A stretch of DNA of 64,000 bases, taken from contig JBDRNX010000032.1 in the NCBI GenBank assembly GCA_043810595.1, positions 38,219-102,218 of the forward strand. The letters run 5' to 3'. Below are positions 9,543 through 57,678 of this stretch, piece by piece. The stretch's first letter is position 1, and every line of letters begins with the position of its first letter. The notes under the pieces are model-generated. The model had not been told where the DNA came from. It worked only from the letters and a program-made list of their open reading frames with translations, and searched no databases. Source of the DNA: an archaeon (lineage in GTDB: Archaea; Nanobdellota; Nanobdellia; SCGC-AAA011-G17; VGLX01). A program made the position numbers and the translations under genes.

Positions 9543-9634
9543 TGCCCCCGCTGGGATTTGAACCCAGGCCACAAGCTGTTTGCATATAGATTATTCCGCA
9601 AGCTCGCATACTATCCAGGCTATACTACGAGGGC
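9543..9634 (-). tRNA. tRNA-Arg(GCG) with ~18-nt intron at the canonical 37/38 position
   Basis: Hand-folded. Acceptor GCCCTCG/CGGGGGC. T-arm CTGGG-TTCAAAT-CCCAG. Anticodon stem CGAGC/GCTTG with loop TTGCGG plus insertion AATAATCTATATGCAAAC. A TTTAAAA box lies about 30 nt upstream. Confidence 0.65.
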
Positions 9635-21208: not shown

Positions 21209-21316
21209 ATTTAGTCTGATTTTTGTTTTATTAAAAAAGTTTTGTGTTTTGTAATGGTTATTTTTTCAAAGGTTAGATTTAAATACCTTTCTTGGTAAGG
21301 AAAAACGGGGGTTTTT

Positions 21317-23023
21317 ATGCAATCTAGGGTCAGGAAAGAAGATAATCTTGCTATTTTGAAGCGTAATGATACTTACATGAAGGATGATGTTTTGAGGGTT
21401 CTTGAGCCTTCTTACCTCACTCCGGGCAGGGGAGTTACTCGCAGGATAGATTCTTTTATAGGGGGTTTGGACGGAAAGCCTGTTACCGGTACGGATATTC
21501 ACAATTTTTATCGTAAGACCTTGAATTGGGAAAAGCTTTATGACGTAGCCAATTCTGCGGGGGTTTCCAGTTCTATAGTTAACGATTTTCTGGGGAAGCA
21601 TCCTAATTACGGTATTAAGGTTTTTACAGGAGTTCAGAATTTTGTTATTTGCAACCCCTTGGTTGTTAAGGAGTTGGGCGGTCCTGTCAAGAAGTTTTCA
21701 AAGCGTCTCAGTCAGAGCATAAGCAAGAAGCTGGAATTGATTTGTGGTGATGTTTTTGTTAAGTTTGATGATATGAAGTCTAAAGATATTGATTACTGGA
21801 AGCTTAAGCCTTTTTTTGATAGTCACGTTAAGAGTTTCAAGGGGGATTTTATTCCTGCTTCCCGGGTTGTTTTGCGTGACGGTAAGTCTGAAGGTGTGGC
21901 TTACTTCAACAGGGAGTTTTATAACATACTTGTTAAGAGCTCTTACAACGGCATAACAATAAACAAATACCCTGAGCCGAGTCAGAGGTTTGATATGTCA
22001 GACCTTTTGAAAGAGCCAACTATCTACAATTTTCCAAAAGAACGAAGGCTCTTGACTCGTGAGGAGGAAGTTGAGTTGAGTAATAAATTCTTAACCATTT
22101 TGGGTAAGATAAGGAAGGTAGAGTCTAGGATTGGTTTGTCATCTGTTGGTATTAAGCGTGTTGCAAAATTGATGGGTGATGCTTATTCTTATGTTTCAAC
22201 GGATAAGAAGAGGTTTAGTAAGGGGGCTCTTGATGCAGCTCTTAGTAAGATTTCTGAACTTGAGGACCATGCTAATTATTATGGTTCCATAATGTTGTGG
22301 CATAATCACGGTTTAATAAGGAAGCGTGCTATTCATTTCGCGAGTTATGCTAAATCTATTACGAGGGATGAGTTGGAACAGGAGGGGAGGCTTGGTGTGA
22401 TGCGTGCATTTAAGAAGTTTGATCCTTCAAAAGGTTATAAGTTCTCTACTTATGCTTCTTGGTGGATCGATCAGGCCATGATCCGGGAGATAATTGATAG
22501 GGATAATCTGATTAGGGTGCCAGTTTACTTGAACGAGTTGATTAATAAGACAAATAGGGTTATGAGAAAGTTTTTTGCTGAGAATAATCGCATCCCTGAC
22601 GATGAGGAGGTTTCAAGTATGATTGGTCTCCCTGTGGAGTATGTTAAGCGGAGCCGTGATGCTTGTGCGGTTAGGAAAACATCTTCTTTGAATAGGGTTG
22701 TTGTTGAGGACGGTGACTCAGAATTGGAATCGTTGGTTGTTTATGATAAGTATAGTAATCCTGAAGAGGAGATTATAGCTAGAATAGACCAGAGCAGCAG
22801 GTCTAAGGAGATTGATAGAATCCTTTCCATTTTGTCTTTTAGGGAGGCGGATATTCTGAAGAAGAGGTTTGGTATAGGCTGCAAAAGTGAGTTAACTCTT
22901 GCAGAGGTGGGTAAAAGTTATGTGCTCACCAGGCAGCGTATAAAGCAGATTGAAGAAGATGCTTTGAACAAGTTGAAGAAAAAATACGGGGATAAGCCTG
23001 AAATCAGGTCTTTCCTACAGTAA
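21317..23023 (+). CDS. Bacterial-type sigma-70 family RNA polymerase sigma factor with a ~235-aa N-terminal extension of unknown function
   Basis: Region 1.2 ([15 protein letters not shown]). Region 2 ([14 protein letters not shown]...[52 protein letters not shown]). Region 3 ([37 protein letters not shown]). Region 4.2 HTH ([50 protein letters not shown]). Confidence 0.8.
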
Positions 23024-25572: not shown

Positions 25573-26430
25573 ATGTATCTGTTTCCATTTCAGGTTGGAA
25601 AGCGTAAGGATGGTCATATACTATCAACTGCTGATACAGATAGGGAAACCTATGATTTGTTGTCAAAATTCGGTTTCAAAACCTTCTACATCAATCCTGA
25701 AAACAGGACTCACGACGGAAAATCAAAGTTTTACATTCAATACGAGAACCTGAACCCTCCGATGGCTGCCATGAAGGTTTTTACTCCTTCCGGCAATAAG
25801 TTGGCCTGGCACCAGCAAGACGACCCAAAGTTTCAGCATTTCAAATGTGCTTGTTACGTCGGTGTCTTTGGCCTACCTGTACCCGATACGAAGTTGGATG
25901 ATAAACCTAGGTCTATGATCGAGGCGTTTAGGACCTTAAGAACTAAGTATAGCAATTTGGAAGAAATGGAGTTTGATGAAAAAGAGATGTCAACTATACC
26001 TTACACTAAATTGCTTCCTGACAGGAATTTCTTTGGCTACAGAATTGGTAAGGATAGAGCTGGTCATATTTTAAGGTCAAAATATCTTGAAAGTGAAATA
26101 GAGCTTTACCTCACTAATTTTGATGTGAGAAAACATTATGTAGATCCCGAGAATAAGACCCTGGACGGTTTTATGAAGGTCTATACGCAGCACCAATTAA
26201 TTGGTGGGGGTTTGAGTGTTTTTACTGTAAGGACACCTGACGGAAACATGTTAGACTTTTATGATAGGAAAGGCGAGTTAATTAAGTGTGGATGCTTAGT
26301 TGGATTCATAGGACTCCCCCCTGATGAGAAGAAGGAGAAGGGTAAGGAACTGCTTCAAATGTTTAGGAATATGATAAAGAAATATCATAAAGGTCTTGAA
26401 GACGTGGTTATAGGAGAAGAAAAAAGCTGA
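25573..26430 (+). CDS. Hypothetical protein built from two tandem ~135-aa repeats
   Basis: Repeat 1 (GKRKDGHILSTADTDRETYDLL...YINPENRTHDGK...KCACYVGVFGLPVPD) and repeat 2 (GKDRAGHILRSKYLESEIELYL...YVDPENKTLDGF...KCGCLVGFIGLPPD) are clearly homologous. Confidence 0.4.
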   Translation: MYLFPFQVGKRKDGHILSTADTDRETYDLLSKFGFKTFYINPENRTHDGKSKFYIQYENLNPPMAAMKVFTPSGNKLAWHQQDDPKFQHFKCACYVGVFGLPVPDTKLDDKPRSMIEAFRTLRTKYSNLEEMEFDEKEMSTIPYTKLLPDRNFFGYRIGKDRAGHILRSKYLESEIELYLTNFDVRKHYVDPENKTLDGFMKVYTQHQLIGGGLSVFTVRTPDGNMLDFYDRKGELIKCGCLVGFIGLPPDEKKEKGKELLQMFRNMIKKYHKGLEDVVIGEEKS

Positions 26431-32231: not shown

Positions 32232-35200
32232 TTGAAAAAATCCACTAAAAAGGTGATATACTTTATTTCTATAGCTATTTTGCTCATTTTTTTGGTAGTT
32301 TTAAGCTCTTCGTGTGACGATGATAAAGACGATTATTGTAGGGCCCCGAAGACTATTATGGGCTATTGTCACACAGAATGCGGTTCTCCTGCTGAATGTC
32401 ACCTTGCATACCCTGGTGATATAGGTACTGGTTGCAAGTTCGGGCAAGTATGTAATGATAATTGTCAGTGTGAGTGGGTGGACCAGGATTTAGATGGTTT
32501 TCCTTCCAAGAACATAGGATACATGCATTATACCAAGGATTGTGACGATAAAGACCCCACTGTTTTCCCTGGTGCTCCTGAGATTTGCGACAACAAGGAT
32601 AACGATTGTAATAATAAGGTTGACGTAGATGAGGGCGGTGTTTGTGATAAGCATGTTTATTTCTGTAAGTCTGATAACTTTAATACCCCCCTTGAAAGTT
32701 GTACCGATGGTCTGTGGTGTTCTGCTGAAACCATTAATACTTCAGCTGCTTGCAAATACACCACCACAATTGGGGATATAGGCACTCAGCCAGTTAAGAC
32801 TTTTGTTTGTGACAACTTCTTCCAGGACGGTGACTACGGTTGTTACAAGTTCGTTAACGGAGCGTTTAGTGTTGTGACTAGTTGCGATAACGATAACGAG
32901 CTTGATGAAACTGAAGAATGTGACGGCACTAATCTCGATGGTAAGAGTTGTGAATACTTCGGTTATTTAGGTGGAACTCTGAAGTGTGACAGGTGTACTT
33001 TTGACTTTGATGATTGTACAGGTGTTGTTTGCGATCATGATAATTTCAAGGATCCTGGTGAGGAATGTGACGGCACCGATTTGAACGGTAAGACTTGTCA
33101 GTATTTCGGTTTGCCTGGAAACGTCTTGACTTGTAACGATGTTTGCTTGTTTGATAAGAGGGGCTGTACAGGTGGTGTTGCTGAGTGTGGTAATAACGTT
33201 GTTGAAGCTGGTGAGACTTGTGACGGCTTCAACTTGAACGGTATGACTTGCAGTGATTTCGATTCTTACACAGGGGGCACTTTGGTTTGTAATGCGCCAG
33301 GTACTGTTAAGGAATGTCATTTCAACACAGCCAGTTGTACTCCTGATAATCCAGGCATCTGTGGTAATAATCAGATAAATGATGGTGAGGAGTGTGACGG
33401 CATGAATCTTGATGGTAAGAGCTGTACAGACTTTGATAATTTCATCAGCGGTTCTTTGAGTTGTTATCCTCAGGGTAACGCTCTTGCTTGTCTACTTGAT
33501 ACAAGTCAGTGTGTCGCTCCTCAGCCCGTCTGCGGTAACGCAATAGTGGAGTCTGGTGAGGAGTGTGACGGTTCAAATCTGAACGGTCAGTCTTGTACCT
33601 CTATGGGCTTTGCTGGTGGTACTTTGTTGTGTGAGGTTGATTGCAGCTATGATTACAGCAGCTGTGAGAGCGTATCTTGTGATAACGATAACGCTGCCGA
33701 GCCTGGCGAGGCTTGTGACGGTACGGATCTCGATGGCAGGATTTGTCAGTTCTTCGGCTTTACTGGCGGAACTCTTGAGTGCAGTAATAATTGTGAGTTT
33801 AATTTCACTAAATGTAATAATTATGTATGTGATAATGATGGGGTTGCTGAGCCTGGCGAGGTTTGTGACGGTGATGATTTGAGGGATTGGACTTGCAATG
33901 ACTTGGACATGTTCACGGGAGGCCTGTTGCAATGTACTGATCTGTGTATGTTTGACAGGAGTGAGTGCAGTTTGATTTGTGATAACAATAACGTCGCTGA
34001 ATCTGGTGAGGAGTGTGACGGCAGTGACTTGAGAGGCAAGGACTGCAGTAACTTCGGAAGGTTCGGCGGATTCCTTCTTTGTAGCTTGTCATGTAAGTAT
34101 GACCTGGGCAGTTGCGGTCCTTCCTGTTTGGAGGATTGGGATTGTACTGCTTGGACGAACTGTTCCAAGATGTCCGATAACACAACTAGGGTTTGTACAG
34201 ACTTAACTGGTTGTGGTACTGAATATTCGAAGCCTAACGAGTTGAAGCCTTGTGACCCCGCAGTATGTGTAGATGATGATAACGATGGTTATTGTGCTTG
34301 CTTCGGTGATGCTGTTGGTTGCGATTGTGATGATACCCTTGCTGCGATACATCCTGACGCTAATGAGCTTTGCAACGGTGAGGATGATAATTGTGATGCC
34401 ACGATTGATGAGGGATGCCCTTGCGAGTTTAACACCACACGTATTTGCGGTGTTGATGAGGGTTTGTGCAGGGAAGGCATCCAGCGCTGCTTGAACGGCT
34501 TCTGGAGTTTCTGTAGCAGTAACTACATAGGTCCAAGACCGGAAGTTTGTGATAACGGTTTGGATGAGGATTGTGATGGTTATCCTGATGATGGTTGTAT
34601 CTGTGAGAATAATGCCACGCAGGAATGCGGCACAGATGTTGGTGAGTGTGAGAAGGGTACTCAGATTTGTTTCGGAGGTAACTGGACTGCTTGTTCAGGT
34701 GCCAAGACTGAAACTGCTGAGGTTTGCTCAGGTAAGAAGGATGAGGACTGTGATACTTTAATAGATTGTGATGATGATTCTTGCTTGATCAGCTCGGTTT
34801 GTGAAGATGGCGGTCCGGGTGGGCCAACTCCAACCTGCTTTGATAAGACTAAGAACCAGGGTGAGGAGGGCGTTGATTGTGGAGGTCCGTGCCCTGCTTG
34901 TCAGGAACTTTGTGGTTATGGCGAGATAACTTCCGAATGTTTGTGCGAAAGCGTTAAGAGAACTTCGGGTTACTGTTGCGGCGGCAATAGGTATCAGATT
35001 AATTCTTGCACATCTGGTTGTACAGATTCTGATGGGGATACTTTGTGTGATGAGGATGAGATACGTGACGGTACAGACCCGAACAATCCCGATACTGATG
35101 GTGATGGAATTAACGATAATGAGGACAGCTGGCCTCGCTGCAACCAGGACGGGAAGTGTGACTCTTCAAAAGATTACCCTGAAGACGCTGATAACTGTCC

Positions 35201-35615
35201 GGACGATTGTGGAGGTAAGAAAAAAGGTGGTGGCCTTGGCCTGTTGTGGTGGATTATTATAATACTTCTAATCTTGATAGTGTGTGCTATTACCGCTTAC
35301 TTTTTGATAAAGAAGGATATAATCAAGTTGAAGAAGAAAAAGAAGGAAGAGCCCAAGGTTGTTTTGGGTAAGCCTATGATGAAGTTCGGTGCCGGTACCA
35401 TTCAGCCGATTACCACTAAGAAGCCGGTGAGGGATGTTTCAAAGCTTGTTTCTTACATTGGGGGTTCTATAAAGAAGGGTGAGTCAAGGTTGAAGTTGAG
35501 GGAGTCTGCTTTGAAGGCCGGCTGGGGTAACGAGGAGATTAACAAGGCTTTCGAAAGCATAGATAAGGGTAGGAAGCAGTCCAACAAGAAGTTCTTCAGC
35601 CTGTTCAAGAAATAA
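32232..35615 (+). CDS. Giant (1127 aa) cysteine-rich repeat surface protein with C-terminal TM anchor and basic cytoplasmic tail
   Basis: Signal peptide. Eight ~45-aa repeats of form C(G/D)N..(E/P)GEECDG.(N/D)L.G..C..FG...G(T)L.C...C.FD...C, reminiscent of Myxococcus-type Cys-rich repeats. TM helix LGLLWWIIIILLILIVCAITAYFLI near the C-terminus. Lys-rich tail. Confidence 0.6.
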   Translation: MKKSTKKVIYFISIAILLIFLVVLSSSCDDDKDDYCRAPKTIMGYCHTECGSPAECHLAYPGDIGTGCKFGQVCNDNCQCEWVDQDLDGFPSKNIGYMHYTKDCDDKDPTVFPGAPEICDNKDNDCNNKVDVDEGGVCDKHVYFCKSDNFNTPLESCTDGLWCSAETINTSAACKYTTTIGDIGTQPVKTFVCDNFFQDGDYGCYKFVNGAFSVVTSCDNDNELDETEECDGTNLDGKSCEYFGYLGGTLKCDRCTFDFDDCTGVVCDHDNFKDPGEECDGTDLNGKTCQYFGLPGNVLTCNDVCLFDKRGCTGGVAECGNNVVEAGETCDGFNLNGMTCSDFDSYTGGTLVCNAPGTVKECHFNTASCTPDNPGICGNNQINDGEECDGMNLDGKSCTDFDNFISGSLSCYPQGNALACLLDTSQCVAPQPVCGNAIVESGEECDGSNLNGQSCTSMGFAGGTLLCEVDCSYDYSSCESVSCDNDNAAEPGEACDGTDLDGRICQFFGFTGGTLECSNNCEFNFTKCNNYVCDNDGVAEPGEVCDGDDLRDWTCNDLDMFTGGLLQCTDLCMFDRSECSLICDNNNVAESGEECDGSDLRGKDCSNFGRFGGFLLCSLSCKYDLGSCGPSCLEDWDCTAWTNCSKMSDNTTRVCTDLTGCGTEYSKPNELKPCDPAVCVDDDNDGYCACFGDAVGCDCDDTLAAIHPDANELCNGEDDNCDATIDEGCPCEFNTTRICGVDEGLCREGIQRCLNGFWSFCSSNYIGPRPEVCDNGLDEDCDGYPDDGCICENNATQECGTDVGECEKGTQICFGGNWTACSGAKTETAEVCSGKKDEDCDTLIDCDDDSCLISSVCEDGGPGGPTPTCFDKTKNQGEEGVDCGGPCPACQELCGYGEITSECLCESVKRTSGYCCGGNRYQINSCTSGCTDSDGDTLCDEDEIRDGTDPNNPDTDGDGINDNEDSWPRCNQDGKCDSSKDYPEDADNCPDDCGGKKKGGGLGLLWWIIIILLILIVCAITAYFLIKKDIIKLKKKKKEEPKVVLGKPMMKFGAGTIQPITTKKPVRDVSKLVSYIGGSIKKGESRLKLRESALKAGWGNEEINKAFESIDKGRKQSNKKFFSLFKK
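32877..34125 (+). repeat. Eight tandem ~135-nt coding repeats (Cys-rich modules) inside the 1127-aa gene
   Basis: Recurrent GEECDG / GETCDG / GEACDG / GEVCDG cores at ~45-aa spacing. Confidence 0.6.
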
Positions 35616-36334: not shown

Positions 36335-37192
36335 CTAAGAAGAAAAAGAAGAAACAAATTTTATTTTTCTTTTTTTATAATAAACTGCTATTATTATCGC
36401 TGCTTCTATTAAGAATACGTAGATGATGATTGGCCATATCGTTCTTGACAGTTCAGCGTTTGAAAAAACGAGTATAAGCGCAAAGATGTAATACGCCGCT
36501 CTTGACAATACCGCCAGGGTTAGGTATTTTGTTTTGATCTCTTCTTTCTGTTTTAGTTTCCATAAAGCCAATGTCGCTATGAGCATTGAGATTATTATGA
36601 ACCATATCAGGTAAGTGTATTGGCTTGGATCAATTCCCAGCATGTCCACTATGAATGCCTCTCCTGTTGCAATTAAAACAAAGAGTATGTATGCAACTAT
36701 CGGCACGGCCCATTTTTCTTCGAGTTCATCGTAGCAGAATACCAGCGCCAGGGTTATCAGCATCCAGGATATGAAGTTGCTTGCAGGCACTCCGAACAGT
36801 CCTTGTGTTGCATCATAACCGATCCACGTCCAGTACCCTTGTTTTACTGCGAAGAATTCAAGTGCGAAGTCCACGAGCAGGACCAGTATTGGTGTTAGGA
36901 ATATCCTTCCGACTTTGTTTGTGAGTTTTGTTGCGATTAAGTACGCGTTTAATATTATTATTCCCCATGACAGTATCACGAAGAGTGGTGTTTTGTATAT
37001 GAAGAGGAGGAATTGTTCGCTGTAGTAGTATCCCCCGACCTGGTTTTGGAATAGTATTACATGCAGGTTCTCGAACAGGGCTGCAAATACGGTAGCTATT
37101 ATGAGCAGGTCTAATTTTTTTGTTTTCTTCGCTATGTATATGTTGAAAATGAATAGTAATATTATGCCTAATTCTACAAATAGATGGAACAA
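36335..37192 (-). CDS. Polytopic membrane protein, unknown function
   Basis: Seven to eight hydrophobic helices. Confidence 0.4.
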   Translation of the reverse strand: MFHLFVELGIILLFIFNIYIAKKTKKLDLLIIATVFAALFENLHVILFQNQVGGYYYSEQFLLFIYKTPLFVILSWGIIILNAYLIATKLTNKVGRIFLTPILVLLVDFALEFFAVKQGYWTWIGYDATQGLFGVPASNFISWMLITLALVFCYDELEEKWAVPIVAYILFVLIATGEAFIVDMLGIDPSQYTYLIWFIIISMLIATLALWKLKQKEEIKTKYLTLAVLSRAAYYIFALILVFSNAELSRTIWPIIIYVFLIEAAIIIAVYYKKRKIKFVSSFSS

Positions 37193-37367
37193 TTTTTCAC
37201 CTCTTAATCATTTATTCCAGCCAATTTTCTACTTTCTTTTTACTGAGTAAAATATAATTTATAAAACTTCTTGTTTTACCTTTCTAATTTATTATATACC
37301 TTAAGGTATAAGAAGTCACGACAAGTATGCGCGCAGCCTTAATAAACCCATCTAAATTATTTTAATT

Positions 37368-38000
37368 ATGGAGATAAATCCTGAAATAGCTGAGCTTTGT
37401 GGCATCATTTTAGGAGATGGTCACTTACATAATACTGAGAACAGGATTACCATAACTGGTTCTGTAGATGACTTACATTACTACAAAGGATATGTCATAC
37501 CTTTATTTCAGAAAAACTTTGGAGAAACTCCAAAGTTAGTGCCAGTCAAAGATAAAAATGCGTGGAAATTAGTATTACAAAATAAGGTGGTTTTTATGTT
37601 TTTTATTAATGAACTGGGTTTAGTGAGAGGTAGGAAGACAAATATAAAAATTCCGACAAGGATATCCTGCTCTAGAGAACTGCTAATCCCTTTCATGAGA
37701 GGGTTATTTGATACGGATGGTTACCTAAAATTTGCTAAACAAAACAGAGATGTTAATTATTACCCTCGAATGAGGCTTACTTTGTATAAAAATGAACTTT
37801 CGCTTAGTCTGTCTAAAGTTTTTAAAAAGTTAAATTTTAACTTTAATAAATGTGTAGATAGAAGATATAACACAATATGCTATGAAATCTCTGGGTCTAT
37901 GATGTTAAATAGGTGGATGGAAATGATAGGTACTTCTAACCCTAAACACCTTGTCAAATACTTTCTTTGGAAAAGACAAGGTTACGTATCTATTATATAA
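37368..38000 (+). CDS. LAGLIDADG homing endonuclease, two-motif monomeric type, free-standing
   Basis: Motif 1 LCGIILGDGHL and motif 2 FMRGLFDTDGYL. Own AT-rich upstream region with TTTATAAAA. Confidence 0.7.
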   Translation: MEINPEIAELCGIILGDGHLHNTENRITITGSVDDLHYYKGYVIPLFQKNFGETPKLVPVKDKNAWKLVLQNKVVFMFFINELGLVRGRKTNIKIPTRISCSRELLIPFMRGLFDTDGYLKFAKQNRDVNYYPRMRLTLYKNELSLSLSKVFKKLNFNFNKCVDRRYNTICYEISGSMMLNRWMEMIGTSNPKHLVKYFLWKRQGYVSII

Positions 38001-43572: not shown

Positions 43573-43686
43573 GCCTCAGTAGCTCAGTCAGAAGAGCGAA
43601 AAATTCACTTGATGGATTTGCTCAGCTGCCTTGTAACTGAGCCGGAAAGCAGTAGGTCGGGGGTGCGAATCCCTCCTGAGGCTCCA
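43573..43686 (+). tRNA. Intron-containing tRNA with genomically encoded CCA. Anticodon tentatively UGU (Thr); one or two introns.
   Basis: Hand-folded. Acceptor GCCTCAG/CTGAGGC. D-arm GCTC-AGTCAGAA-GAGC. T-arm GGGGG-TGCGAAT-CCCTC. 3' TCCA. ~38 extra nt between the D-arm and the variable loop. A TTTTAAA box lies about 28 nt upstream. Confidence 0.55.
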
Positions 43687-43687
43687 T

Positions 43688-43759
43688 GGGCTCGTAGTCT
43701 AGTGGTATGACGTCGCCTTGACATGGCGGAGGTCGGGTGTTCGATCCACCCCGGGCCCA
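43688..43759 (+). tRNA. tRNA-Val(GAC)
   Basis: Hand-folded. Acceptor GGGCTCG/CGGGCCC. Anticodon arm TCGCC-TTGACAT-GGCGG. T-arm GGGTG-TTCGATC-CACCC. Only 1 nt separates it from the preceding tRNA. Confidence 0.75.
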
Positions 43760-43814
43760 TTTTTCTCCTTTAATAAAGAAAGGTTTTTATATACCAAAAT
43801 TGTTATTTTTTATC

Positions 43815-45809
43815 ATGCGAAAAAGAGGTCAGGTGACCGCCTTTATCATCCTCGGCGTCATCATAGTTGCTTTGGTTGCCATCGGTATCTACTATCGAGA
43901 TTCTTTAATGGAGTCTCTTTCTTCTATTGGGGTCGTTGGCGGTGTAAAGGTTCCCGAGGAATTCCAAGAGATTAATTTTTACGTTGAGGATTGTGTTAAT
44001 GATATTTCCGAGGATGGCATAAGATTGTTGGGCTTGCAGGCTGGCTATCTTTCTATTCCAGAAGATTCTATTCCTGCCGGCCCAGCAAATCTTTTTTCCA
44101 ACCGATTGGGTGTTTTTCCCAACGGACATATGGAGGTGCCTTACTGGTTTTACGTTACAGCCAATAACATACCTAGGGACGCAACTCCTTCCATAGGTTC
44201 TATGGAACAAGGCCTTGCTACTTACATAGATTCCAATTTAGATGATTGTATCGATAATTTCACCGAGTTTGACAGGTTCAAAATAGCTCCGAGGAATCAT
44301 AAGACTTCTGTGAAGATTAAGAAGGATGCTGTTGATGTCGAAGTTTCATTCCCTATAACTGCGGAGCTGGATGATAAGGTTTACAACTTCAAAGAGTTCA
44401 AGGTTGAGGTTCCTGCTGCTCTGGGCAAGCTTTACAGCATGGCTTTGCAGATACAAGATAGTGAGAACACAGATTATTTCCTTGAGGATAAGACTTATGA
44501 CGTTCTTGTTTTGTATGAGGAGATTCCCTTATCTGAGACTGACTTTAGTTGTTCCCCTAGGATTTGGTCTAAGACTAAGGTTACTGAGGATTTCAAGAGA
44601 TTTCTCTCCTATAACGTTCCTGCGATAAAGGTGAAGGGTGCTGATTATAACATGTTGCCGGGTCGTAAGTACTTTGAGTGGGGTGCTTTGGAAACTTCTT
44701 ATCCTGACACGAGTGTTAATTTCATGTATTCTAGCTCTTGGCCCATCTACCTTGATGTCGTTCCTGCTGAGGGCGATGTTCTTAAGGGCGATGAGTTCTT
44801 GAGGGAGAATGCAGGTGAGGCACTTTCCTACCTCTCGTCTTTTGTGTGCATTAACCAGTATCATTTTATTTACGACATCAAGCATCCTGTTCTGGTTGTT
44901 TTACACGATGACGAATCTTTCGGTGGCCGGGGTTTGGACTTCCAGTTTGCTACCATGGTTGTTATCGATAACAATCAGCCTAGGGAGAACACGGCTCAAG
45001 ACTTGGGAATACCGGATGACGTTACTACCAATGAGATTTGCAAGTATGCGAGTTCAAAAATCACGATTAATGTTTTGAGACCTTCCTTTGGTGCGTTTGT
45101 TCCTGTTCCTGATGCGGATGTTTCTTACAAGTGTATCACCTCCCTTTGTGACATCGGTAAGACAGGCTCAGACGGTTCCATCACTGCCAACTTCCCTGCT
45201 TGTATTAACGGTGCTGTCATCGCCAAGAAGGACGGCTTCCATCAGGGTAAGACAACTCTTTCGACTAACGAGCCTGCAAGCACGTCTGTTATTATCGAAC
45301 CTTATTATGATTTGAATGTTGATGTTAGGGTTTTGAGTCCCTCTCCGAGAATTCCTTTGGCTACCGAGAAGATTGTTTTTAACTTCGTCAACGAGGAGGC
45401 TGGCTACTCGACCTCTTTCATCTATCCTGATGATAAAAAACTTAAGCTTATTTCAGGAGACTATGAGGTTACCTCCTACGTGGTTGAGGAAAGTCCGTTT
45501 GAGATCACGATACAAGGTCAAGATGTGGAGCACTGCACCACGGTCCCTAAGGGTATTTTGGGGATATTTGGTGTTGAGGAAGAGAAGTGTTCAAGTGTTA
45601 ACATCCCACCTACCAAGCTGAAGACTCTTATTAAGGGCGGAGCTAACTTTAAGTTCACTGTTAACAGGAATGATTTGGCGTCAGCCACTAGGGTAGTGCT
45701 TTACACAGTTTCTGAAAAAACGCCTAGTACCTATGAAGAGCTTGCTGACGTTTATTCAAGTCTTCAAGAGCAAAAGTCATATTTCATTTATCCGAGGTTT
45801 GAAAGATGA
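43815..45809 (+). CDS. Large (664 aa) secreted protein with pilin-like class III signal peptide
   Basis: MRKRGQVTAFIILGVIIVALVAIGIYY (KRG|Q then hydrophobic stretch). The longer ORF start would overlap tRNA-Val, so the ATG at 43815 was taken. Confidence 0.45.
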   Translation: MRKRGQVTAFIILGVIIVALVAIGIYYRDSLMESLSSIGVVGGVKVPEEFQEINFYVEDCVNDISEDGIRLLGLQAGYLSIPEDSIPAGPANLFSNRLGVFPNGHMEVPYWFYVTANNIPRDATPSIGSMEQGLATYIDSNLDDCIDNFTEFDRFKIAPRNHKTSVKIKKDAVDVEVSFPITAELDDKVYNFKEFKVEVPAALGKLYSMALQIQDSENTDYFLEDKTYDVLVLYEEIPLSETDFSCSPRIWSKTKVTEDFKRFLSYNVPAIKVKGADYNMLPGRKYFEWGALETSYPDTSVNFMYSSSWPIYLDVVPAEGDVLKGDEFLRENAGEALSYLSSFVCINQYHFIYDIKHPVLVVLHDDESFGGRGLDFQFATMVVIDNNQPRENTAQDLGIPDDVTTNEICKYASSKITINVLRPSFGAFVPVPDADVSYKCITSLCDIGKTGSDGSITANFPACINGAVIAKKDGFHQGKTTLSTNEPASTSVIIEPYYDLNVDVRVLSPSPRIPLATEKIVFNFVNEEAGYSTSFIYPDDKKLKLISGDYEVTSYVVEESPFEITIQGQDVEHCTTVPKGILGIFGVEEEKCSSVNIPPTKLKTLIKGGANFKFTVNRNDLASATRVVLYTVSEKTPSTYEELADVYSSLQEQKSYFIYPRFER

Positions 45810-48800
45810 GAACAGAGTTGATTGCATTTTTCTGTATGGCTTTAGTAATTTGCATTCCCCTGACTTTGGCTGCTGATACTCAGGAGGTACTTAAAGGGGC
45901 TGAGCCTGAATTCAAGAGTATCGATGTTGATGAGTTTGAGGAGCGTGAGACAGGGGAGTCTATAGTTGTTGAGGTTAAGTCTTACGAGCCCCAAGTTTTG
46001 GTAGCTTCTGCCATAGAGCAGGATGATGTTCCTGTGTTTGTTTTCTTGACAGGTACCACCCTCGGCAGTTACAAAGGACCGGAGTTTGTCAGTGAGGGCA
46101 GGCTTACTGTTGTTAAGGAGGGCGACATATTCTATGGTGTTCCCCCTATCAAAAACGTTTACATAAGCGAGCGTGATTATGATAGCAAGTACGTTCGGTC
46201 TGTTACCTACAAAAAACCTAAGAACAGTTTGTATTCTCTTGACAACCTCGGTTACTTGATTGTTAATCTCAAGCAGATTCCCAAGGAAGCCGACGTTCCT
46301 AACATTATAGATGCTAACATGACTGTCAGGATTGAGTTTGATATGGAAAGGAGTTATGGTATCGGTAGGCAGACTTTGATATTGAGTGAGGAGGCTAACG
46401 AGAAGACTTTCCTCAACAAGGTTGACTTAAGGGATAACATGGTTTTCTCCGGTAATGCTTATGTTCGTGCTGTTAAGATTTCTGACGATTCTGTTGACAT
46501 TATGGTTTATGACACTGCGTTGAAAGGTCTTGGTAGCAGGACTAACCTTAAGGTGGGACAGATTTCCAGTGCTATAACTTTGCGTGGTACTCATTCCAAC
46601 CTTGTCCAGGATCAGTTCAGGTTGCAGGTTGATTCTATCGTTGATCCTCAGCGTGAGTACGCTGAGGTCGAGGTCAGCATTGACGGTTCGTTGCCTGAGA
46701 AGAAGATTCTTTACAAGGGCTCTACTTTGTATCCTGGCTCTAGTGTGACAGTTTCTGATGTTAGTAAGATTGCATCAGGTAAGGAGATTATAGAGTCTGT
46801 TAGGGTAGCAGCAACTTCAGGAACTTACATAGCAAGCCGTAATTACACCAGCAAGTATAACATCCTTAATGCCGAGATGAATAAGGAGGCTTATGAAAAT
46901 AAGATTTATAAGAATGGTGCTGATCTTCAGGAGGTTCTTAAGATTAGTAACTTCAAGTTTGATGATTTGAAGAATGCTTTTGGATTTGATAGCATAACGT
47001 TTGATCCGATAACAGTTAATGCTTTGACGGTCGATCAGGATTACAAGCCGACTACAGTTACTGGGAAGGTTAAGACTCTTGCTAGTGTTCTTTCTGACTT
47101 GAAGCTTTCCCCTGAGATAGTTTTTGATGAAGCGAACAAGAAGGTGATAATAAAGATTTTCAAAATCGCAGAGAGGGAGCTTGCTGATCCTTGCACGAGC
47201 CAGGATTTGGTTTACACCCAGACTGCTTATTATAATGAGGCTGCCAGGAAAACCTTAATGGGCTTTTTTGATAAGGAGGGCAAGCTGTCCAATCAGGAGA
47301 AGAAGCGTTTGCTTTGTTCCGCTATTGATGTTTTCAAGAGGGTTTCTGCTTCTTATGGCAATGAGATGGACGAGAATAATAAGGTTCGTTACGGTGCCGA
47401 AGCTGATTACATGATCGGCAAGGGTTATGATGAGCTTTCCAAATTGGACGACATAGTTAATGGTGAAGTTGCTTCGACAAATGCATTGAATTATTATAGG
47501 CGGGCTCAGTCTGCGGGTTTCATAACTTCTGATATTCAAACTAAGATAGAGGAGTTCAGCACCAATTTGGTAACTGGTGTTGAGGGTCACGACATAGTTG
47601 TTGATGATAACGGTCACGAGGTTATTATACACTTGTTGCAGGTTGTTGATAAGACAGGAGCCCAACTTGATGCTTCTGCCCGCATTTCAGTAAACAACAA
47701 GGCTGCTACTGTTTTCAGGACAGGTGAATCTTTGTTCCCCGGTGAGCCTAAGGATATGGACAGATGCAGGATTAAGGAGATTAAGAGTTCCAGCGTTATC
47801 GTTGAAAACTGTCCTAAGCATGATAAAGATGGGAACACATTGAAGGATACTGCCCTGCCTGATATCACTTTGAAGGAAAACGTTCTCACTACAATTGAGA
47901 ATTACAGGGTGATACTTCTGGGTACTGAGATTAACAAGCAAGCAACAGTTACAGTGTTGCCAGGTTCTGGTAAGTCTATGTTCTCTGAATCAAGTTTCAT
48001 GTTGCACATACCTGTTGAGAAGCGGGCTATCAAGTTGAATCCTGATAAGATTGACGATAAGATTAACAAGACTGAAGAAACTATTAAAAAACTGAATGAG
48101 ATTATAACAAATCTTGATAAGCTTATCAAGTCCTGGAAGGCTGTCTGCCTTGCCACTTTTGCTTTCCTTACCATAAAGAATTCTTTCGGCTTATTCGGCG
48201 GAGGTGCTGCTAGGGTCAGGGCTAGGGAGAGAGTTATGGTTGACAGTGGTTGGAGGAAGTATTGTGAGACGGATTCCGGTCCTGGCAAGACCTACAAGAG
48301 TTATGACGAGTGTATTTTTGAGCATGCTGATAAGATCAATCAGAACATCGATGCTGTTCAGAAGGCTCTTGAGTCTGCTGATAATAGTTACGCTAAAGGT
48401 TCTGATAATGCAGCAGGTGTTGACATAAAGGGGATTAAGGATTTCCAGAAGTCTAGCGGCGAGGAGCTTTATTCCGAAGAGAATTTCAAGAATCTTGTTT
48501 ACCTGAAGGAGTTGAATGATGCCTGTTCCAGCGGCGTGGGAAGTTTTGGTAACGACGCTAAGGGCAAGCCTTACCCGAACACGTGTGCCGATGTTTCTAA
48601 GAAGTACTCTGATGCCTTGTTTGAGATTCAGAGCGCTAATACCAACCTTGGTGGTGCTCTTACCGAGTTTAAGGATAAGAAGCTTGACAGCTTCGAAGCT
48701 TGGAAGAAGGAGCATAAGGAAGGTGCTCTTGCTGATTTCCTTAACGAGAGAACTTCTGAGGTTAACAAGTTGAAGTCAGAATCTCAATTCAAGACTTATG

Positions 48801-52876: not shown

Positions 52877-52960
52877 TGCGGGAGACAGGATTTGAACCTG
52901 CGTAGGCACTAAGCCACACGGTCCTAAGCCGTGTCCGTTTGGCCGCTCCGGCACTCCCGC
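52877..52960 (-). tRNA. tRNA-Leu(UAG), type II
   Basis: Same scaffold as the CAG isoacceptor, with anticodon loop CTTAGGA. A TTTTAAAAA box lies about 30 nt upstream. Confidence 0.75.
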
Positions 52961-56763: not shown

Positions 56764-57678
56764 ATGCCAACGTATATCAAAAAATGCCCCGAATGTGGGG
56801 GAATAAACTTAATTCTTAACAAGGATAAGGGAGAAGTAATCTGTAAAGATTGTGGTCTAGTTATTGAGGAGAAGATGATTGATTTCGGCCAGGAGTGGCG
56901 TGAGTTTGACCACGACCAGGCTGATAAGCGTCGTAGAACAGGTGCTCCGATGACTTATACCAAGTATGACAAGGGATTGGGTACTGACATAGGTCAGAAA
57001 GGCGATGTTTACAAGCTTTCTGGCAAGGAGCGTAATAAGTTTTTCAGGTTGAGGAAGTGGCAGTACCGGATTTCAACTGCCATAGAGAGGAACTTGAAGC
57101 TTGCGCTTGCTGAATTGAAAAGAGTTTCTTCATATTTGAAGCTTCCCAAGTCTGTCGAGGAGGAATCAGCTAGGATTTACACAATGGCTGTTCAGCGTGG
57201 CCTTGTAAGGGGTCGTTCGATGGAGTCAGTGGTTGCGGGTGCTGTTTATGCTGCCTGCAGGCGTCATGAAGTGCCTAGAACGCTTGACGAGCTTTCAGAA
57301 GCTTCTGGCATTGACAAGAAGGAGATAGGAAGGACTTACAGGTTTGTTACTAGAGAGCTTGGTATCAGGATTTTGCCGAGCAACCCTGTGGATTACCTGC
57401 CAAGGTTCGCTTCAGCTTTGAAACTTTCTGCTGAGACTCAAAGTAAGGCTGTTGAGATTCTCGAGCAGGCTCAGAGGTCTGAGCTTACCTCAGGAAGGGG
57501 TCCGACTGGTATTGCTGCAGCTTCACTTTACGTTGCTGCCTTGATCAACAACGAGAAGAGAACGCAAAGGGAAGTTGCTGACATAGCAGGGGTTACAGAG
57601 GTTACGATTAGGAACAGGTACAAGGAGTTGCTTAAGAAGCTTAAGCTTAAGGATAAGATCAAGGTCAAGAAAGAATAA
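56764..57678 (+). CDS. tfb: Transcription initiation factor IIB (TFB)
   Basis: N-terminal Zn ribbon (CPECGGINLILNKDKGEVICKDCG), B-finger and two cyclin repeats. Confidence 0.9.
   Translation: MPTYIKKCPECGGINLILNKDKGEVICKDCGLVIEEKMIDFGQEWREFDHDQADKRRRTGAPMTYTKYDKGLGTDIGQKGDVYKLSGKERNKFFRLRKWQYRISTAIERNLKLALAELKRVSSYLKLPKSVEEESARIYTMAVQRGLVRGRSMESVVAGAVYAACRRHEVPRTLDELSEASGIDKKEIGRTYRFVTRELGIRILPSNPVDYLPRFASALKLSAETQSKAVEILEQAQRSELTSGRGPTGIAAASLYVAALINNEKRTQREVADIAGVTEVTIRNRYKELLKKLKLKDKIKVKKE

What the first reader, a model, noticed from the sequence alone, without database searches (positions are those of the whole stretch)
21317..23023. Complete bacterial-type sigma-70 factor with a novel N-terminal domain in an archaeal chromosome
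The C-terminal ~330 aa carries every hallmark of a group 1/2 sigma-70. Region 1.2 is [14 protein letters not shown]. Region 2.1-2.4 is [52 protein letters not shown]. Region 3 and the region 4.2 helix-turn-helix ([29 protein letters not shown]) are also present. The first ~235 aa match nothing I recognise. The gene sits between a GINS-like/L44e-S27e-aIF2alpha operon and archaeal apgM, so it is chromosomal rather than on an obvious foreign island. Archaeal transcription uses TBP/TFB, and tfb is present at 56764, so a sigma factor has no cognate core enzyme here. It may be a horizontally acquired gene repurposed to bind another partner. It may target the RNA polymerase of a bacterial associate. 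The N-terminal domain may confer a new function. This is the strongest candidate in the window for an undescribed system.
Basis: partly seen in the sequence, partly recalled or inferred. Interest (0 to 1): 0.85.

Follow-up and report, generated by a model that had tools for sequence, protein, structure and literature searches.

The report
Fast-evolving bacterial-type sigma factor in archaeon
A small symbiotic-type (DPANN) archaeon carries a real, natively expressed copy of the bacterial transcription-start protein sigma-70 with an unknown DNA-binding-like front end; such genes were already noted in these archaea, but this one changes 5-8 times faster than its neighbours and what it does is unknown.

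Summary
ORF 21317-23023 (+, 568 aa) scores above Pfam's thresholds for sigma-70 regions 2, 3 and 4. Its model matches primary sigma-A structures. The flanks and the rest of the window are archaeal, of the Woesearchaeota/Nanoarchaeota (DPANN) type.

It is not an assembly chimera or a recent import. Related genes sit in archaeal core-gene neighbourhoods in eight related loci (12 contigs). Seven of those loci have the same convergent apgM downstream. GC3 matches the neighbours, and every copy has an archaeal TTTAAATA/TTTATATA box.

The unexpected result is speed. Neighbours are 70-95% identical between these genomes, the sigma only 30-45% (dN 0.50-0.81 against 0.03-0.17). The -35-reading residues and the core-binding residues Q406/E407 still persist.

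Sigma-70 genes in DPANN were reported by Castelle et al. 2021, so the class is known. I read this as a new variant, most likely an accessory DNA-binding regulator. That mechanism is inferred, not shown.

The parts
21317..23023 (+). Whole gene: 568-aa sigma-70-derived protein. It is identical to the NCBI entry 'MAG: sigma-70 family RNA polymerase sigma factor [archaeon]' (P0001).
   Evidence: ORF; Pfam r2/r3/r4 above gathering scores; identical database protein on a 104,973-bp contig; AF2 model pLDDT 77.8 matching primary sigma-A chains in holoenzyme structures over ~340 columns at 26-31% identity.
21317..22042 (+). Family-specific N-terminal domain (residues 1-242). It is basic (pI 9.4, net +10) and is predicted to hold two winged-helix-like modules (about residues 71-125 and 126-212). 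It takes the place of acidic region 1.1.
22043..22303 (+). Region 1.2 remnant ([15 protein letters not shown], residues 245-259) followed by a ~70-aa non-conserved-region-like insert (residues 260-329).
   Evidence: Sigma70_r1_2 sub-threshold, 15.4 bits against gathering score 22, residues 244-257. tblastn alignments to bacterial RpoD begin at residue 245. Alignment to the E. coli sigma-70 NCR C-terminal part. Long helices 248-272 and 302-329 in the model.
22304..22531 (+). Sigma region 2 (residues 330-405): the core-binding 2.2 surface and the -10 melting / non-template-strand 2.3-2.4 surface.
   Evidence: Pfam Sigma70_r2 49.1 bits. E. coli-numbered residues conserved in the family: D403 7/9, Q406 8/9, E407 7/9, T429 8/9, Y430 8/9, W433 6/9, W434 6/9, Q437 7/9. 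T440 is kept in only 1/9.
22535..22771 (+). Sigma region 3 (residues 407-485), including the 3.2 linker ('finger'). This is the least conserved sigma part.
   Evidence: Pfam Sigma70_r3 37.7 bits, detected in 8/9 members. Mean 29% identity within the family. H455 kept in 2/9 and E458 in 4/9. pLDDT below 50 for residues 453-491.
22823..22981 (+). Sigma region 4 (residues 503-555) with the 4.2 helix-turn-helix. This is the best conserved functional surface of the family.
   Evidence: Pfam Sigma70_r4 47.7 bits, detected in 9/9 members. R584, E585, R586 and R588 each 8/9. Q589, T572, L573, E591 and R562 each 9/9.
21272..21285 (+). Archaeal promoter of the sigma gene. A GTTAGA upstream element sits at the position of a BRE, followed by the TATA box TTTAAATA (21278-21285), whose 5' edge is 39 nt before the ATG.
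   Evidence: Sequence. TTTAAATA or TTTATATA lies at the equivalent place before all nine family genes. TTTAWATA occurs 17 times in the window, 6 of them 19-39 nt upstream of gene starts. Assignment as TATA/BRE is inferred from established archaeal promoter architecture.
21239..21255 (.). Conserved intergenic element GTTTTGTGTTTTGTAAT between the divergent Gins51-operon and sigma promoters. Its function is unknown. It is possibly an extended upstream element of the Gins51 operon promoter or a regulator site.
   Evidence: Alignment of five loci. It does not recur in the window beyond chance.

Best explanation
The gene encodes a genuine descendant of a bacterial primary (group 1, RpoD-like) sigma-70. 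An ancestor of a Woesearchaeota/Nanoarchaeota-type DPANN lineage acquired it. It became fixed next to the Gins51-L44e-S27e-aIF2alpha operon and apgM, and it has been inherited vertically since.

Shown:
- It is transcribed from a canonical archaeal TATA promoter.
- It has lost acidic region 1.1 and gained a basic ~240-aa N-terminal domain that looks like two winged-helix modules.
- It evolves 5-8 times faster than its neighbours while staying intact.
- Even so, it keeps the sigma-4.2 residues that read a TTGACA-type -35 element, the region 2.2 residues that dock on the RNA polymerase clamp helices, and (in the window's clade) the region 2.3 aromatic residues.

Inferred:
- It is no longer a general initiation factor. 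It works inside the archaeal cell as an accessory, sequence-specific DNA-binding transcription regulator.
- Region 4.2 and the N-terminal winged-helix modules bind DNA.
- Region 2 possibly contacts the clamp coiled-coil of the archaeal polymerase. That is the universally conserved site used by sigma region 2 in bacteria and by TFE and Spt5 in archaea.
- Release from the bacterial constraint of co-evolving with one core enzyme and thousands of promoters explains the acceleration.
For: Identity:
- Pfam r2, r3 and r4 are above their gathering scores.
- In NCBIfam the best match is RpoD (179.7 bits), ahead of RpoS (140.8), FliA (96.9) and RpoH (83.7).
- The model matches primary sigma-A chains in holoenzyme structures.

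Archaeal host:
- The window has RadA, eRF1-type factors, SRP54/FtsY, TFB, GINS, L44e, S27e and aIF2alpha.
- Its TFB is in a 90% cluster with Woesearchaeota/Nanoarchaeota TFBs.

Vertical inheritance, not a chimera:
- Members lie in archaeal core-gene neighbourhoods in eight related loci.
- GC 0.404 and GC3 0.429 are within the neighbours' range.

Native expression signals.

Functional constraint despite speed:
- Nine of nine ORFs are intact at 539-593 aa.
- There is a tandem duplicate in L003.
- Omega is about 0.28-0.41, below 1.
- Residue table: Q589, T572, L573, E591 and R562 9/9; R584, E585, R586 and R588 8/9; Q406 8/9; Y430 8/9.

Not a housekeeping sigma:
- Sigma2-4 identity is 29-38% within the family, while RpoD from E. 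coli, Bacilli and Sumerlaeota is 65-70% identical.
- Sigma-70-type promoter motifs are not enriched: 37 found against 35.2 +/- 5.3 expected.
- The RpoD equivalog cut-off is missed by a wide margin.

N-domain as a DNA-binding module:
- pI is 9.1-9.6 in 8/9 members.

Literature: sigma-70 genes occur in DPANN alongside TBP, TFB and TFE, with no anti-sigma factors (PMC8204110).
Against: - No target DNA motif, regulon or protein partner was found. The conserved intergenic element does not recur and no TTGACA-type site is enriched.
- Contact with the archaeal polymerase is pure inference. The polymerase genes are not in the window, and no complex prediction was possible.
- The conserved sigma residues are also the most conserved ones in all sigma-70 proteins. 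Some (W434, L573) are partly structural, so their retention does not prove retained activity.
- The four most divergent members have lost W433/W434, so melting activity is at best clade-specific.
- Very fast evolution fits a conflict-type role at least as well as a relaxed regulator.
Confidence: 0.45

Rival explanations
1. Cross-domain effector. The protein is a sigma mimic that acts on the RNA polymerase of a bacterial partner or neighbour of this DPANN archaeon, redirecting or blocking its transcription in the way phage-encoded sigma factors do. An arms race with that partner drives the rapid evolution.
For: - The surfaces needed to use a bacterial core enzyme and bacterial promoters are the ones retained: Q406/E407/D403, Y430/W433/W434 in the window's clade, and R584-Q589.
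- dN is 5-8 times that of the neighbours and divergence is star-like. Both are typical of conflict genes.
- The specificity residue T440 is variable, kept in only 1/9.
- DPANN are predicted symbionts (PMC8204110).
Against: - There is no signal peptide or hydrophobic segment (max Kyte-Doolittle 19-aa mean is at most 1.43).
- No secretion or delivery genes are adjacent.
- From my own knowledge, the demonstrated DPANN hosts are archaea.
- The basic N-domain has no known delivery function.
- The melting residues have decayed in 3-4 members.
Confidence: 0.12
2. Conflict or defence factor within the archaeon. The protein is a sigma-derived DNA or polymerase binder involved in virus or mobile-element conflict, comparable in spirit to the sigma-like MzaA protein of the MZA anti-phage system. 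Viral counter-measures drive its fast evolution.
For: - The second-best NCBIfam match and the only PADLOC match is MzaA (177 and 110.6 bits).
- The evolutionary rate is extreme and there is a tandem duplication.
- The N-domain sub-modules resemble phage excisionase/MerR-type wHTH.
Against: - The MzaA match covers only the generic sigma2-4 part (residues 346-556) and lies far below the curated cut-off of 800 bits.
- No Mza partner or other defence genes flank any of the loci.
- The locus is a housekeeping neighbourhood, not a defence island.
- There are no relatives on viral contigs.
Confidence: 0.1
3. Decaying relic. The gene is a horizontally acquired sigma with no function in the archaeon, drifting under relaxed selection.
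For: - Sequence divergence is very high relative to the neighbours.
- W433/W434, H455 and T440 are lost in several members.
- No partner or target was identified.
Against: - At the neighbours' dS of about 1-2, a neutral 1.7-kb ORF would be broken. Yet 9/9 are intact with similar length, and one genome keeps two copies.
- Omega is below 1.
- The strong archaeal TATA box is conserved before every copy.
- Residues are invariant in both the N-domain and region 4.2.
Confidence: 0.06
4. Canonical sigma serving a bacterial-type RNA polymerase encoded elsewhere in the same genome, or an assembly or binning chimera of bacterial and archaeal DNA.
For: Only 64 kb of the genome could be inspected, so a bacterial core enzyme elsewhere cannot be formally excluded.
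Against: - The gene is embedded between archaeal genes on 12 contigs from NCBI, ENA, JGI and Logan.
- Its archaeal promoter and its GC3 are native.
- None of the window ORFs scanned against Pfam is a bacterial polymerase subunit.
- Castelle et al. excluded mis-binning and report only the archaeal transcription apparatus in DPANN.
Confidence: 0.02

Closest known systems
Bacterial primary (group 1) sigma-70 factors, RpoD/SigA
   Same: - Regions 2, 3 and 4 are present, with the same order and fold.
- There is a region 1.2 remnant and an NCR-like insert.
- The -35 reading residues R584/E585/R586/R588/Q589 and the clamp-helix-binding residues Q406/E407 are kept.
- The best-scoring curated family is RpoD.
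   Different: - The host is an archaeon with TBP/TFB-type transcription.
- Acidic region 1.1 is replaced by a basic ~240-aa domain.
- The RpoD equivalog score is one third of the cut-off.
- Identity between close relatives is 30-45%, whereas bacterial RpoD is 65-70% identical across phyla.
- The specificity residues T440, R436, H455 and N409 are changed.
- Sigma-70-type promoters are not enriched.
Sigma-70 genes of DPANN archaea reported by Castelle et al. 2021 (protein family fam00359, prevalent in Woesearchaeota; PMC8204110)
   Same: - It is a sigma-70 family protein encoded in a Woesearchaeota/Nanoarchaeota-type genome.
- It is not a binning artefact.
- No anti-sigma factor is nearby.
- The mechanism is unknown.
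   Different: As far as the text and the held supplements show, the paper gives no domain architecture, locus, promoter or rate analysis. I could not verify whether this N-domain subfamily is part of fam00359. Only 9 clusters carry the N-domain, so it is probably one sub-lineage of the reported set.
MzaA, the sigma-70 family protein of the MZA anti-phage system
   Same: It is a sigma-70 C-terminal half preceded by a long non-sigma N-terminal extension. It is the second-best NCBIfam hit and the only PADLOC hit.
   Different: - The match is confined to the sigma2-4 part.
- It scores 177 bits against a cut-off of 800.
- The N-terminal regions are unrelated.
- No Mza partner genes are present in any locus.
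Archaeal TFB / eukaryotic TFIIB, the native functional analogue of sigma
   Same: It is a promoter-recognition factor with an HTH that reads an upstream element. The window's own TFB even scores Sigma70_r4 at 25.5 bits.
   Different: There is no zinc ribbon and there are no cyclin repeats. The protein is a true sigma by regions 2 and 3. TFB is present separately at 56764-57678.

Membership tests
Sigma-70 family (Pfam clan; regions 2 and 4 as the minimal definition) | Region 2 and region 4 profile matches above the curated thresholds | tested here: met
   Sigma70_r2 49.1 bits against 24 and Sigma70_r4 47.7 bits against 24.1. Both are found in 9/9 family members.
Group 1 (primary) sigma, RpoD/SigA | Region 3 present | tested here: met
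   Sigma70_r3 37.7 bits against 25.3; found in 8/9 members.
Group 1 (primary) sigma, RpoD/SigA | Region 1.2 present | tested here: inconclusive
   PF00140 scores 15.4 bits against a gathering score of 22 at residues 244-257, in 2/9 members. However, alignments to bacterial RpoD start at residue 245, and the model matches sigma-A chains from region 1.2 onward.
Group 1 (primary) sigma, RpoD/SigA | Acidic region 1.1 (PF03979) | tested here: not met
   There is no PF03979 hit. The N-terminal 242 aa have pI 9.4 and net charge +10, against pI 4.1 and net -20 for E. coli region 1.1.
Group 1 (primary) sigma, RpoD/SigA | Curated RpoD equivalog score | tested here: not met
   NF004208 scores 179.7 bits against a cut-off of 555. 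TIGR02393 scores 172.7 against 354.
Group 1 (primary) sigma, RpoD/SigA | Works with a bacterial core RNA polymerase encoded in the same genome, and is essential for housekeeping transcription | not testable with these tools
   Only a 64-kb window is available. None of the window ORFs scanned against Pfam is a bacterial polymerase subunit. The literature reports only the archaeal apparatus in DPANN.
Group 1 (primary) sigma, RpoD/SigA | Very slow evolution (high cross-phylum conservation of sigma2-4) | tested here: not met
   Identity is 29-38% within the family, against 65-70% between E. coli, Bacilli and Sumerlaeota RpoD. dN is 0.50-0.81.
DPANN sigma-70 genes (Castelle et al. 2021) | A sigma-70 family gene on a contig whose other genes are phylogenetically DPANN archaeal | tested here: met
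   The context is archaeal. The TFB is in a 90% cluster with Woesearchaeota/Nanoarchaeota proteins. Members lie in archaeal core-gene neighbourhoods in eight related loci.
DPANN sigma-70 genes (Castelle et al. 2021) | Membership of their protein family fam00359 | not testable with these tools
The term is absent from the held supplements.
MzaA (MZA anti-phage system) | Full-length match above the curated cut-off | tested here: not met
   NF041931 scores 177 bits against 800, and only residues 352-556 align to profile positions 504-704. PADLOC gives 110.6 bits over residues 346-555.
MzaA (MZA anti-phage system) | Adjacent MzaB-E partner genes | tested here: not met
   The neighbours are Gins51/L44e/S27e/aIF2alpha/PAC2 and apgM/TruD/FtsY in the related loci.
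Phage- or virus-encoded sigma factors | Encoded on a viral genome or provirus | tested here: not met
   There is no relative of the N-domain on 2.9 million viral contigs. There is no viral structural match. No phage genes flank the locus.

The most novel reading that the evidence does not exclude
A bacterial sigma has been domesticated into archaeal transcription. Region 2 would dock on the clamp coiled-coil of the archaeal RNA polymerase, the site normally used by TFE/Spt5. Region 4.2 and the new winged-helix N-domain would read DNA. That would give a hybrid bacterial/archaeal initiation or regulation route.

Alternatively, the protein is a cross-domain effector that reprograms a bacterial partner's polymerase.

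Either reading would make this the first sigma factor with a function outside bacteria, their phages and plastids.
Probability: 0.2. Interest if true: 0.9.

Novelty: new variant of a known kind. Interest (0 to 1): 0.6.

Why it matters
Sigma factors and TBP/TFB are textbook markers of the bacterial and archaeal-eukaryotic ways of starting transcription. A sigma that an archaeal lineage keeps intact, expresses from an archaeal promoter and duplicates raises a direct question. Can a sigma module work with, or next to, an archaeal polymerase, whose clamp coiled-coil is the universally conserved docking site? Or is it used against other organisms?

The family defined here has nine divergent members. 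It has a fixed locus, a defined promoter, a new basic N-domain and a clear map of which sigma residues survive rapid change. That makes it a small, concrete test set for experiments on a gene whose presence had been noted in the literature but, in what I could search, not analysed further.

The rate contrast is 30-45% identity against 70-95% for the neighbours. This is also a useful marker of what a sigma loses when it is freed from a bacterial core enzyme and promoter set.

Tried and rejected
1. Word-index search with the N-terminal 245 aa found nothing, not even the identical database entry. I treat this as a tool limitation, not as evidence. The exhaustive HMMER search replaced it.
2. The genome-contig scan with the family alignment was saturated by bacterial RpoD, because one pattern was the generic region 2.3 motif. 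Taxonomy came from the TFB cluster instead.
3. The profile search with all nine members again returned only P0001-P0003 plus bacteria.
4. Metagenome and viral contig scans with N-domain patterns found no relatives. The pattern hits were chance matches.
5. The afdb50 fold library was unavailable.
6. The PAS-domain hint from the PDB profile search (E 0.02) was rejected, because the region is predicted mostly helical.
7. My early idea that the ~40% identity meant deep vertical inheritance across distant lineages was wrong. The neighbours are 70-95% identical, so the genomes are close and the gene is fast.
8. Hidden paralogy as the full explanation of the divergence was rejected. Copies that share the same promoter type and position (window, L001, L003a, L088) are still only 31-40% identical. 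It may still contribute, because L084 looks like a survivor of the second tandem copy.
9. A regulon search with the conserved intergenic element and the promoter motif found no recurrence beyond chance.
10. There is no enrichment of sigma-70-type promoters.
11. The supplement search for fam00359 or 'sigma' in Castelle et al. found nothing.
Full report

Yes. The window has an ATG-initiated ORF at 21317..23023 on the + strand, encoding 568 aa.

Pfam finds three sigma regions, all above their gathering scores:
- Sigma70_r2, residues 330-394, 49.1 bits.
- Sigma70_r3, residues 407-485, 37.7 bits.
- Sigma70_r4, residues 503-555, 47.7 bits.

Among NCBI's curated models the order is RpoD (179.7 bits), MzaA (177), RpoS (140.8), FliA (96.9) and RpoH (83.7). 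All are far below their equivalog cut-offs.

An AlphaFold2 model built on the family alignment has mean pLDDT 77.8. It matches primary sigma-A chains from Thermus, Streptomyces, Mycobacterium and E. coli holoenzyme structures over about 340 columns at 26-31% identity.

Region 1.2 is a remnant. PF00140 gives 15.4 bits against a gathering score of 22 at residues 244-257. tblastn alignments to bacterial RpoD begin at residue 245. Region 1.1 is absent.

**2. Is the context archaeal, and is the contig sound?**

The neighbours are Gins51, L44e, S27e, aIF2-alpha and PAC2 on the minus strand upstream. Downstream are apgM (convergent, with a 9-nt overlap of the 3' ends) and TruD. Elsewhere the window encodes RadA, eRF1-type factors, SRP54, FtsY, S3Ae and TFB.

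The window's TFB belongs to a 90%-identity cluster whose named members come from 'Candidatus Woesearchaeota', 'Nanoarchaeota' and 'Nanoarchaeia' MAGs. The organism is therefore a DPANN archaeon of that type. The exact protein is already in NCBI as 'MAG: sigma-70 family RNA polymerase sigma factor [archaeon]' on a 104,973-bp contig.

Relatives lie in archaeal core-gene neighbourhoods on 12 contigs from NCBI, ENA, JGI and Logan, which represent eight related loci:
- Seven of the eight related loci have apgM immediately downstream, in convergent overlap.
- Four of them (L001, L003, L084, L088), like the window, have the Gins51-L44e-S27e operon upstream.
- The most divergent member lies between L44e-S27e-aIF2alpha and PAC2, next to the Rpo6-exosome-proteasome superoperon.

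GC (0.404) and GC3 (0.429) are within the neighbours' range. An assembly chimera, a binning error and a recent island are all excluded.

**3. Expression signals**

A TTTAAATA box lies at 21278-21285, with its 5' edge 39 nt before the ATG. It is preceded by GTTAGA. All nine family genes have TTTAAATA or TTTATATA at the equivalent place. For two genes this holds once over-long annotated starts are corrected.

In the window TTTAWATA occurs only 17 times on both strands. Six of these are 19-39 nt upstream of gene starts, including TruD and the apgM operon. The sigma gene is therefore driven by the genome's ordinary TBP/TFB-type promoter. The assignment as a TATA box follows established archaeal promoter architecture.

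By contrast, sigma-70-type promoter motifs are not enriched. There are 37 in 20 kb against 35.2 +/- 5.3 in shuffles.

**4. The N-terminal domain**

A profile of residues 1-243 was searched with HMMER against 1.84 billion representative proteins. It found eight real matches. All are 539-593 aa long and all carry the sigma part. The two weaker hits are repeat proteins.

With the window protein this gives a nine-member family (alignment A3). The domain never occurs on its own or in another architecture.

It has no significant match anywhere else:
- Pfam: nothing.
- PDB sequences: best E 0.02, a PAS domain inconsistent with the predicted helices.
- Viral structures: no E <= 0.001.
- Viral and metagenome contig scans: nothing.

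The domain is basic, with pI 9.1-9.6 in eight of nine members. E. coli region 1.1 has pI 4.1 and net charge -20. There is no signal peptide or transmembrane segment.

So the autoinhibitory acidic DNA mimic of primary sigmas has been replaced by something that looks like extra nucleic-acid-binding modules. That functional reading is an inference.

**5. The unexpected property: rate**

Between the window and the related loci the neighbouring proteins are 70-95% identical:

| Protein | Identity to the window ortholog |
|---|---|
| PAC2 | 77-85% |
| aIF2alpha | 75-83% |
| Gins51 | 79-89% |
| apgM | 70-83% |
| TruD | 75-81% |
| FtsY | 72-86% |
| Sigma | 30-45% |

These ranges leave out the most rearranged locus, L086. 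There PAC2, aIF2alpha, L44e and S27e fall to 42-75%, and the sigma is 31%.

Nei-Gojobori dN is 0.50-0.81 for sigma, against 0.03-0.17 for seven neighbours in the same genome pairs. The neighbours have dS of about 0.9-2 and omega of 0.03-0.16. Where dS is computable, sigma has omega of about 0.28-0.41.

Within sigma2-4 the family members are 29-38% identical to each other. That is no more than they are to bacterial RpoD (25-40%). RpoD of E. coli, a Bacillus-class organism and a Sumerlaeota bacterium are 65-70% identical to each other. This is a star-like divergence that keeps only the universal sigma consensus.

My earlier reading, that 40% identity meant deep vertical inheritance, was therefore wrong. 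The genomes are close relatives and the gene is fast.

Hidden paralogy may contribute. L003 carries two tandem copies that are 35% identical, and L084 looks like a survivor of the second copy. It cannot be the whole explanation, because copies with the same promoter type and position are still only 31-40% identical.

Nine of nine ORFs are intact, and omega is below 1. Simple decay is therefore unlikely.

**6. What is kept**

Counts below use E. coli numbering across the nine members.

| Region | Residues and counts |
|---|---|
| 4.2 (the -35 readers) and region 4 scaffold | R584 8/9, E585 8/9, R586 8/9, R588 8/9, Q589 9/9; T572, L573, E591, R562 9/9 |
| 2.2 (beta-prime clamp-helix contact) | D403 7/9 (E in the other two), Q406 8/9, E407 7/9; N409 only 2/9 |
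| 2.3 (capture of the flipped -11 base, and melting) | T429 8/9, Y430 8/9; W433 and W434 6/9 |
| 2.4 (-12 specificity) | T440 1/9 |
| 3.0 (extended -10) | H455 2/9 |

W433 and W434 are both kept in the window's clade and each is lost in three of the four most divergent members. Region 3 is the least conserved part, at a mean of 29%.

The roles assigned to these residues come from the established sigma-70 structure-function literature, recalled from my own knowledge.

The pattern says that DNA reading by the 4.2 helix-turn-helix and the clamp-helix surface are still under selection. Promoter-specificity details are free to change.

**7. Most likely mechanism, and its rivals**

I favour an accessory regulator, with confidence about 0.45 for the whole statement. 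The identity and history part is near certain. The mechanism is inferred.

In this reading the protein is a sigma-derived, sequence-specific DNA-binding protein acting inside the archaeal cell. Region 4.2 and the winged-helix N-domain would bind DNA. Region 2 would possibly dock on the clamp coiled-coil of the archaeal polymerase, which is the universally conserved site used by sigma region 2, NusG/Spt5 and TFE. Freed from co-evolution with a bacterial core enzyme and a genome-wide promoter set, it evolves quickly.

Against this reading, I found no target motif, no regulon and no partner. The polymerase contact could not be tested.

The rivals are:
- A cross-domain effector acting on a bacterial partner's polymerase (0.12). 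This fits the retained surfaces and the arms-race-like rate. However, there is no export signal, no delivery genes and no known bacterial host.
- A conflict or defence factor in the spirit of MzaA (0.10). The MzaA similarity is confined to the generic sigma part, and no partner genes are present.
- A decaying relic (0.06). This is contradicted by the intact ORFs, omega below 1, the conserved promoter and the duplication.
- A canonical sigma with a hidden bacterial polymerase, or a chimera (0.02).

**8. Comparison with what is known, and novelty**

Castelle et al. 2021 (PMC8204110) reported sigma-70 genes in newly reconstructed DPANN genomes, 'particularly prevalent in Woesearchaeota'. They ruled out mis-binning, found no anti-sigma factors and stated that the mechanism is unclear. 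Four further literature searches found no functional or structural follow-up.

The following appear to be new:
- The definition of this N-domain subfamily.
- Its fixed locus beside apgM and, in the window and four related loci, the Gins51 operon.
- Its archaeal promoter.
- The replacement of region 1.1 by a basic winged-helix-like domain.
- The 5-8-fold rate acceleration with selective retention of the 4.2 and 2.2 surfaces.

I rate it a new variant of a known kind, with interest 0.6. The most novel reading not excluded is a sigma working with an archaeal polymerase, or acting across domains. It would be of high interest (0.9), and I give it about 0.2 probability.

**9. Limits**

- Only nine sequences support the N-domain model.
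- dS is near saturation.
- The host taxonomy rests on one protein cluster.
- The genome-wide gene content could not be inspected.
- Two of the large-database tools could not recover the divergent family members. The family may therefore be larger than seen here.

Noticed in passing
window 56764-57678 (+): The window's own TFB scores Pfam Sigma70_r4 at 25.5 bits, above the gathering score of 24.1, at residues 263-294. A 95-aa TFB fragment in its 90% cluster is named 'sigma factor-like helix-turn-helix DNA-binding protein' at NCBI (P0231). Some 'sigma' labels in archaeal MAGs may therefore be TFB fragments. The gene studied here is not one of them.
   Followed up: partly
window 21239-21255: A conserved intergenic element GTTTTGTGTTTTGTAAT (a direct GTTTTGT repeat) lies between the divergent Gins51-operon and sigma promoters. 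It is nearly identical in the window, L001, L003 and L084 and partly so in L088. It does not recur in the window beyond chance. Its function is unknown.
   Followed up: partly
L003 8188-9906 and 10001-11725: One relative carries two tandem copies of the sigma gene that are only 35% identical, each with its own TTTAAATA box. The upstream region of L084 looks like a fusion left after loss of the first copy.
   Followed up: partly
window 23015-23023, and the same junction in L001, L003, L084, L088, L089 and L091: The 3' ends of the sigma gene and the convergent apgM gene overlap by 4-20 nt in every locus where they are adjacent. The two transcripts must therefore be antisense to each other at their ends.
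   Followed up: no
window 43737-45809, 45806-51586 and 32232-35615 (+): Three very large ORFs have little or no annotation. The 690-aa and 1926-aa ORFs have no Pfam match. The 1127-aa ORF matches only a MopE-type metal-binding motif. They are possibly large surface proteins.
   Followed up: no
window 37001-38000: This is the lowest-GC patch of the window (0.32 against about 0.41). It contains an ORF at 37368-38000 with a sub-threshold LAGLIDADG_3 match, 21 bits against 22.5. It is possibly a remnant homing endonuclease.
   Followed up: no
window 43573-43683 (+), 9543-9634 (-) and 52877-52960 (-): The Rfam tRNA matches are 111, 92 and 84 nt long, longer than the 71-position model. They are probably intron-containing or long-arm archaeal tRNAs.
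   Followed up: no
window 25573-26430 (+): This 285-aa ORF between TruD and FtsY has no Pfam match. To the eye it has two similar halves (FGFKTFYINPENRTHDG... and FDVRKHYVDPENKTLDG...). The same slot holds different unannotated ORFs in L001, L003 and L088, so it is a variable spot in an otherwise conserved block.
   Followed up: no
P0004 (database protein, not in the window): The fourth-best database hit is a 579-aa bacterial sigma in which the segment from region 1.2 to region 3 is duplicated verbatim. This is probably an assembly artefact.
   Followed up: no
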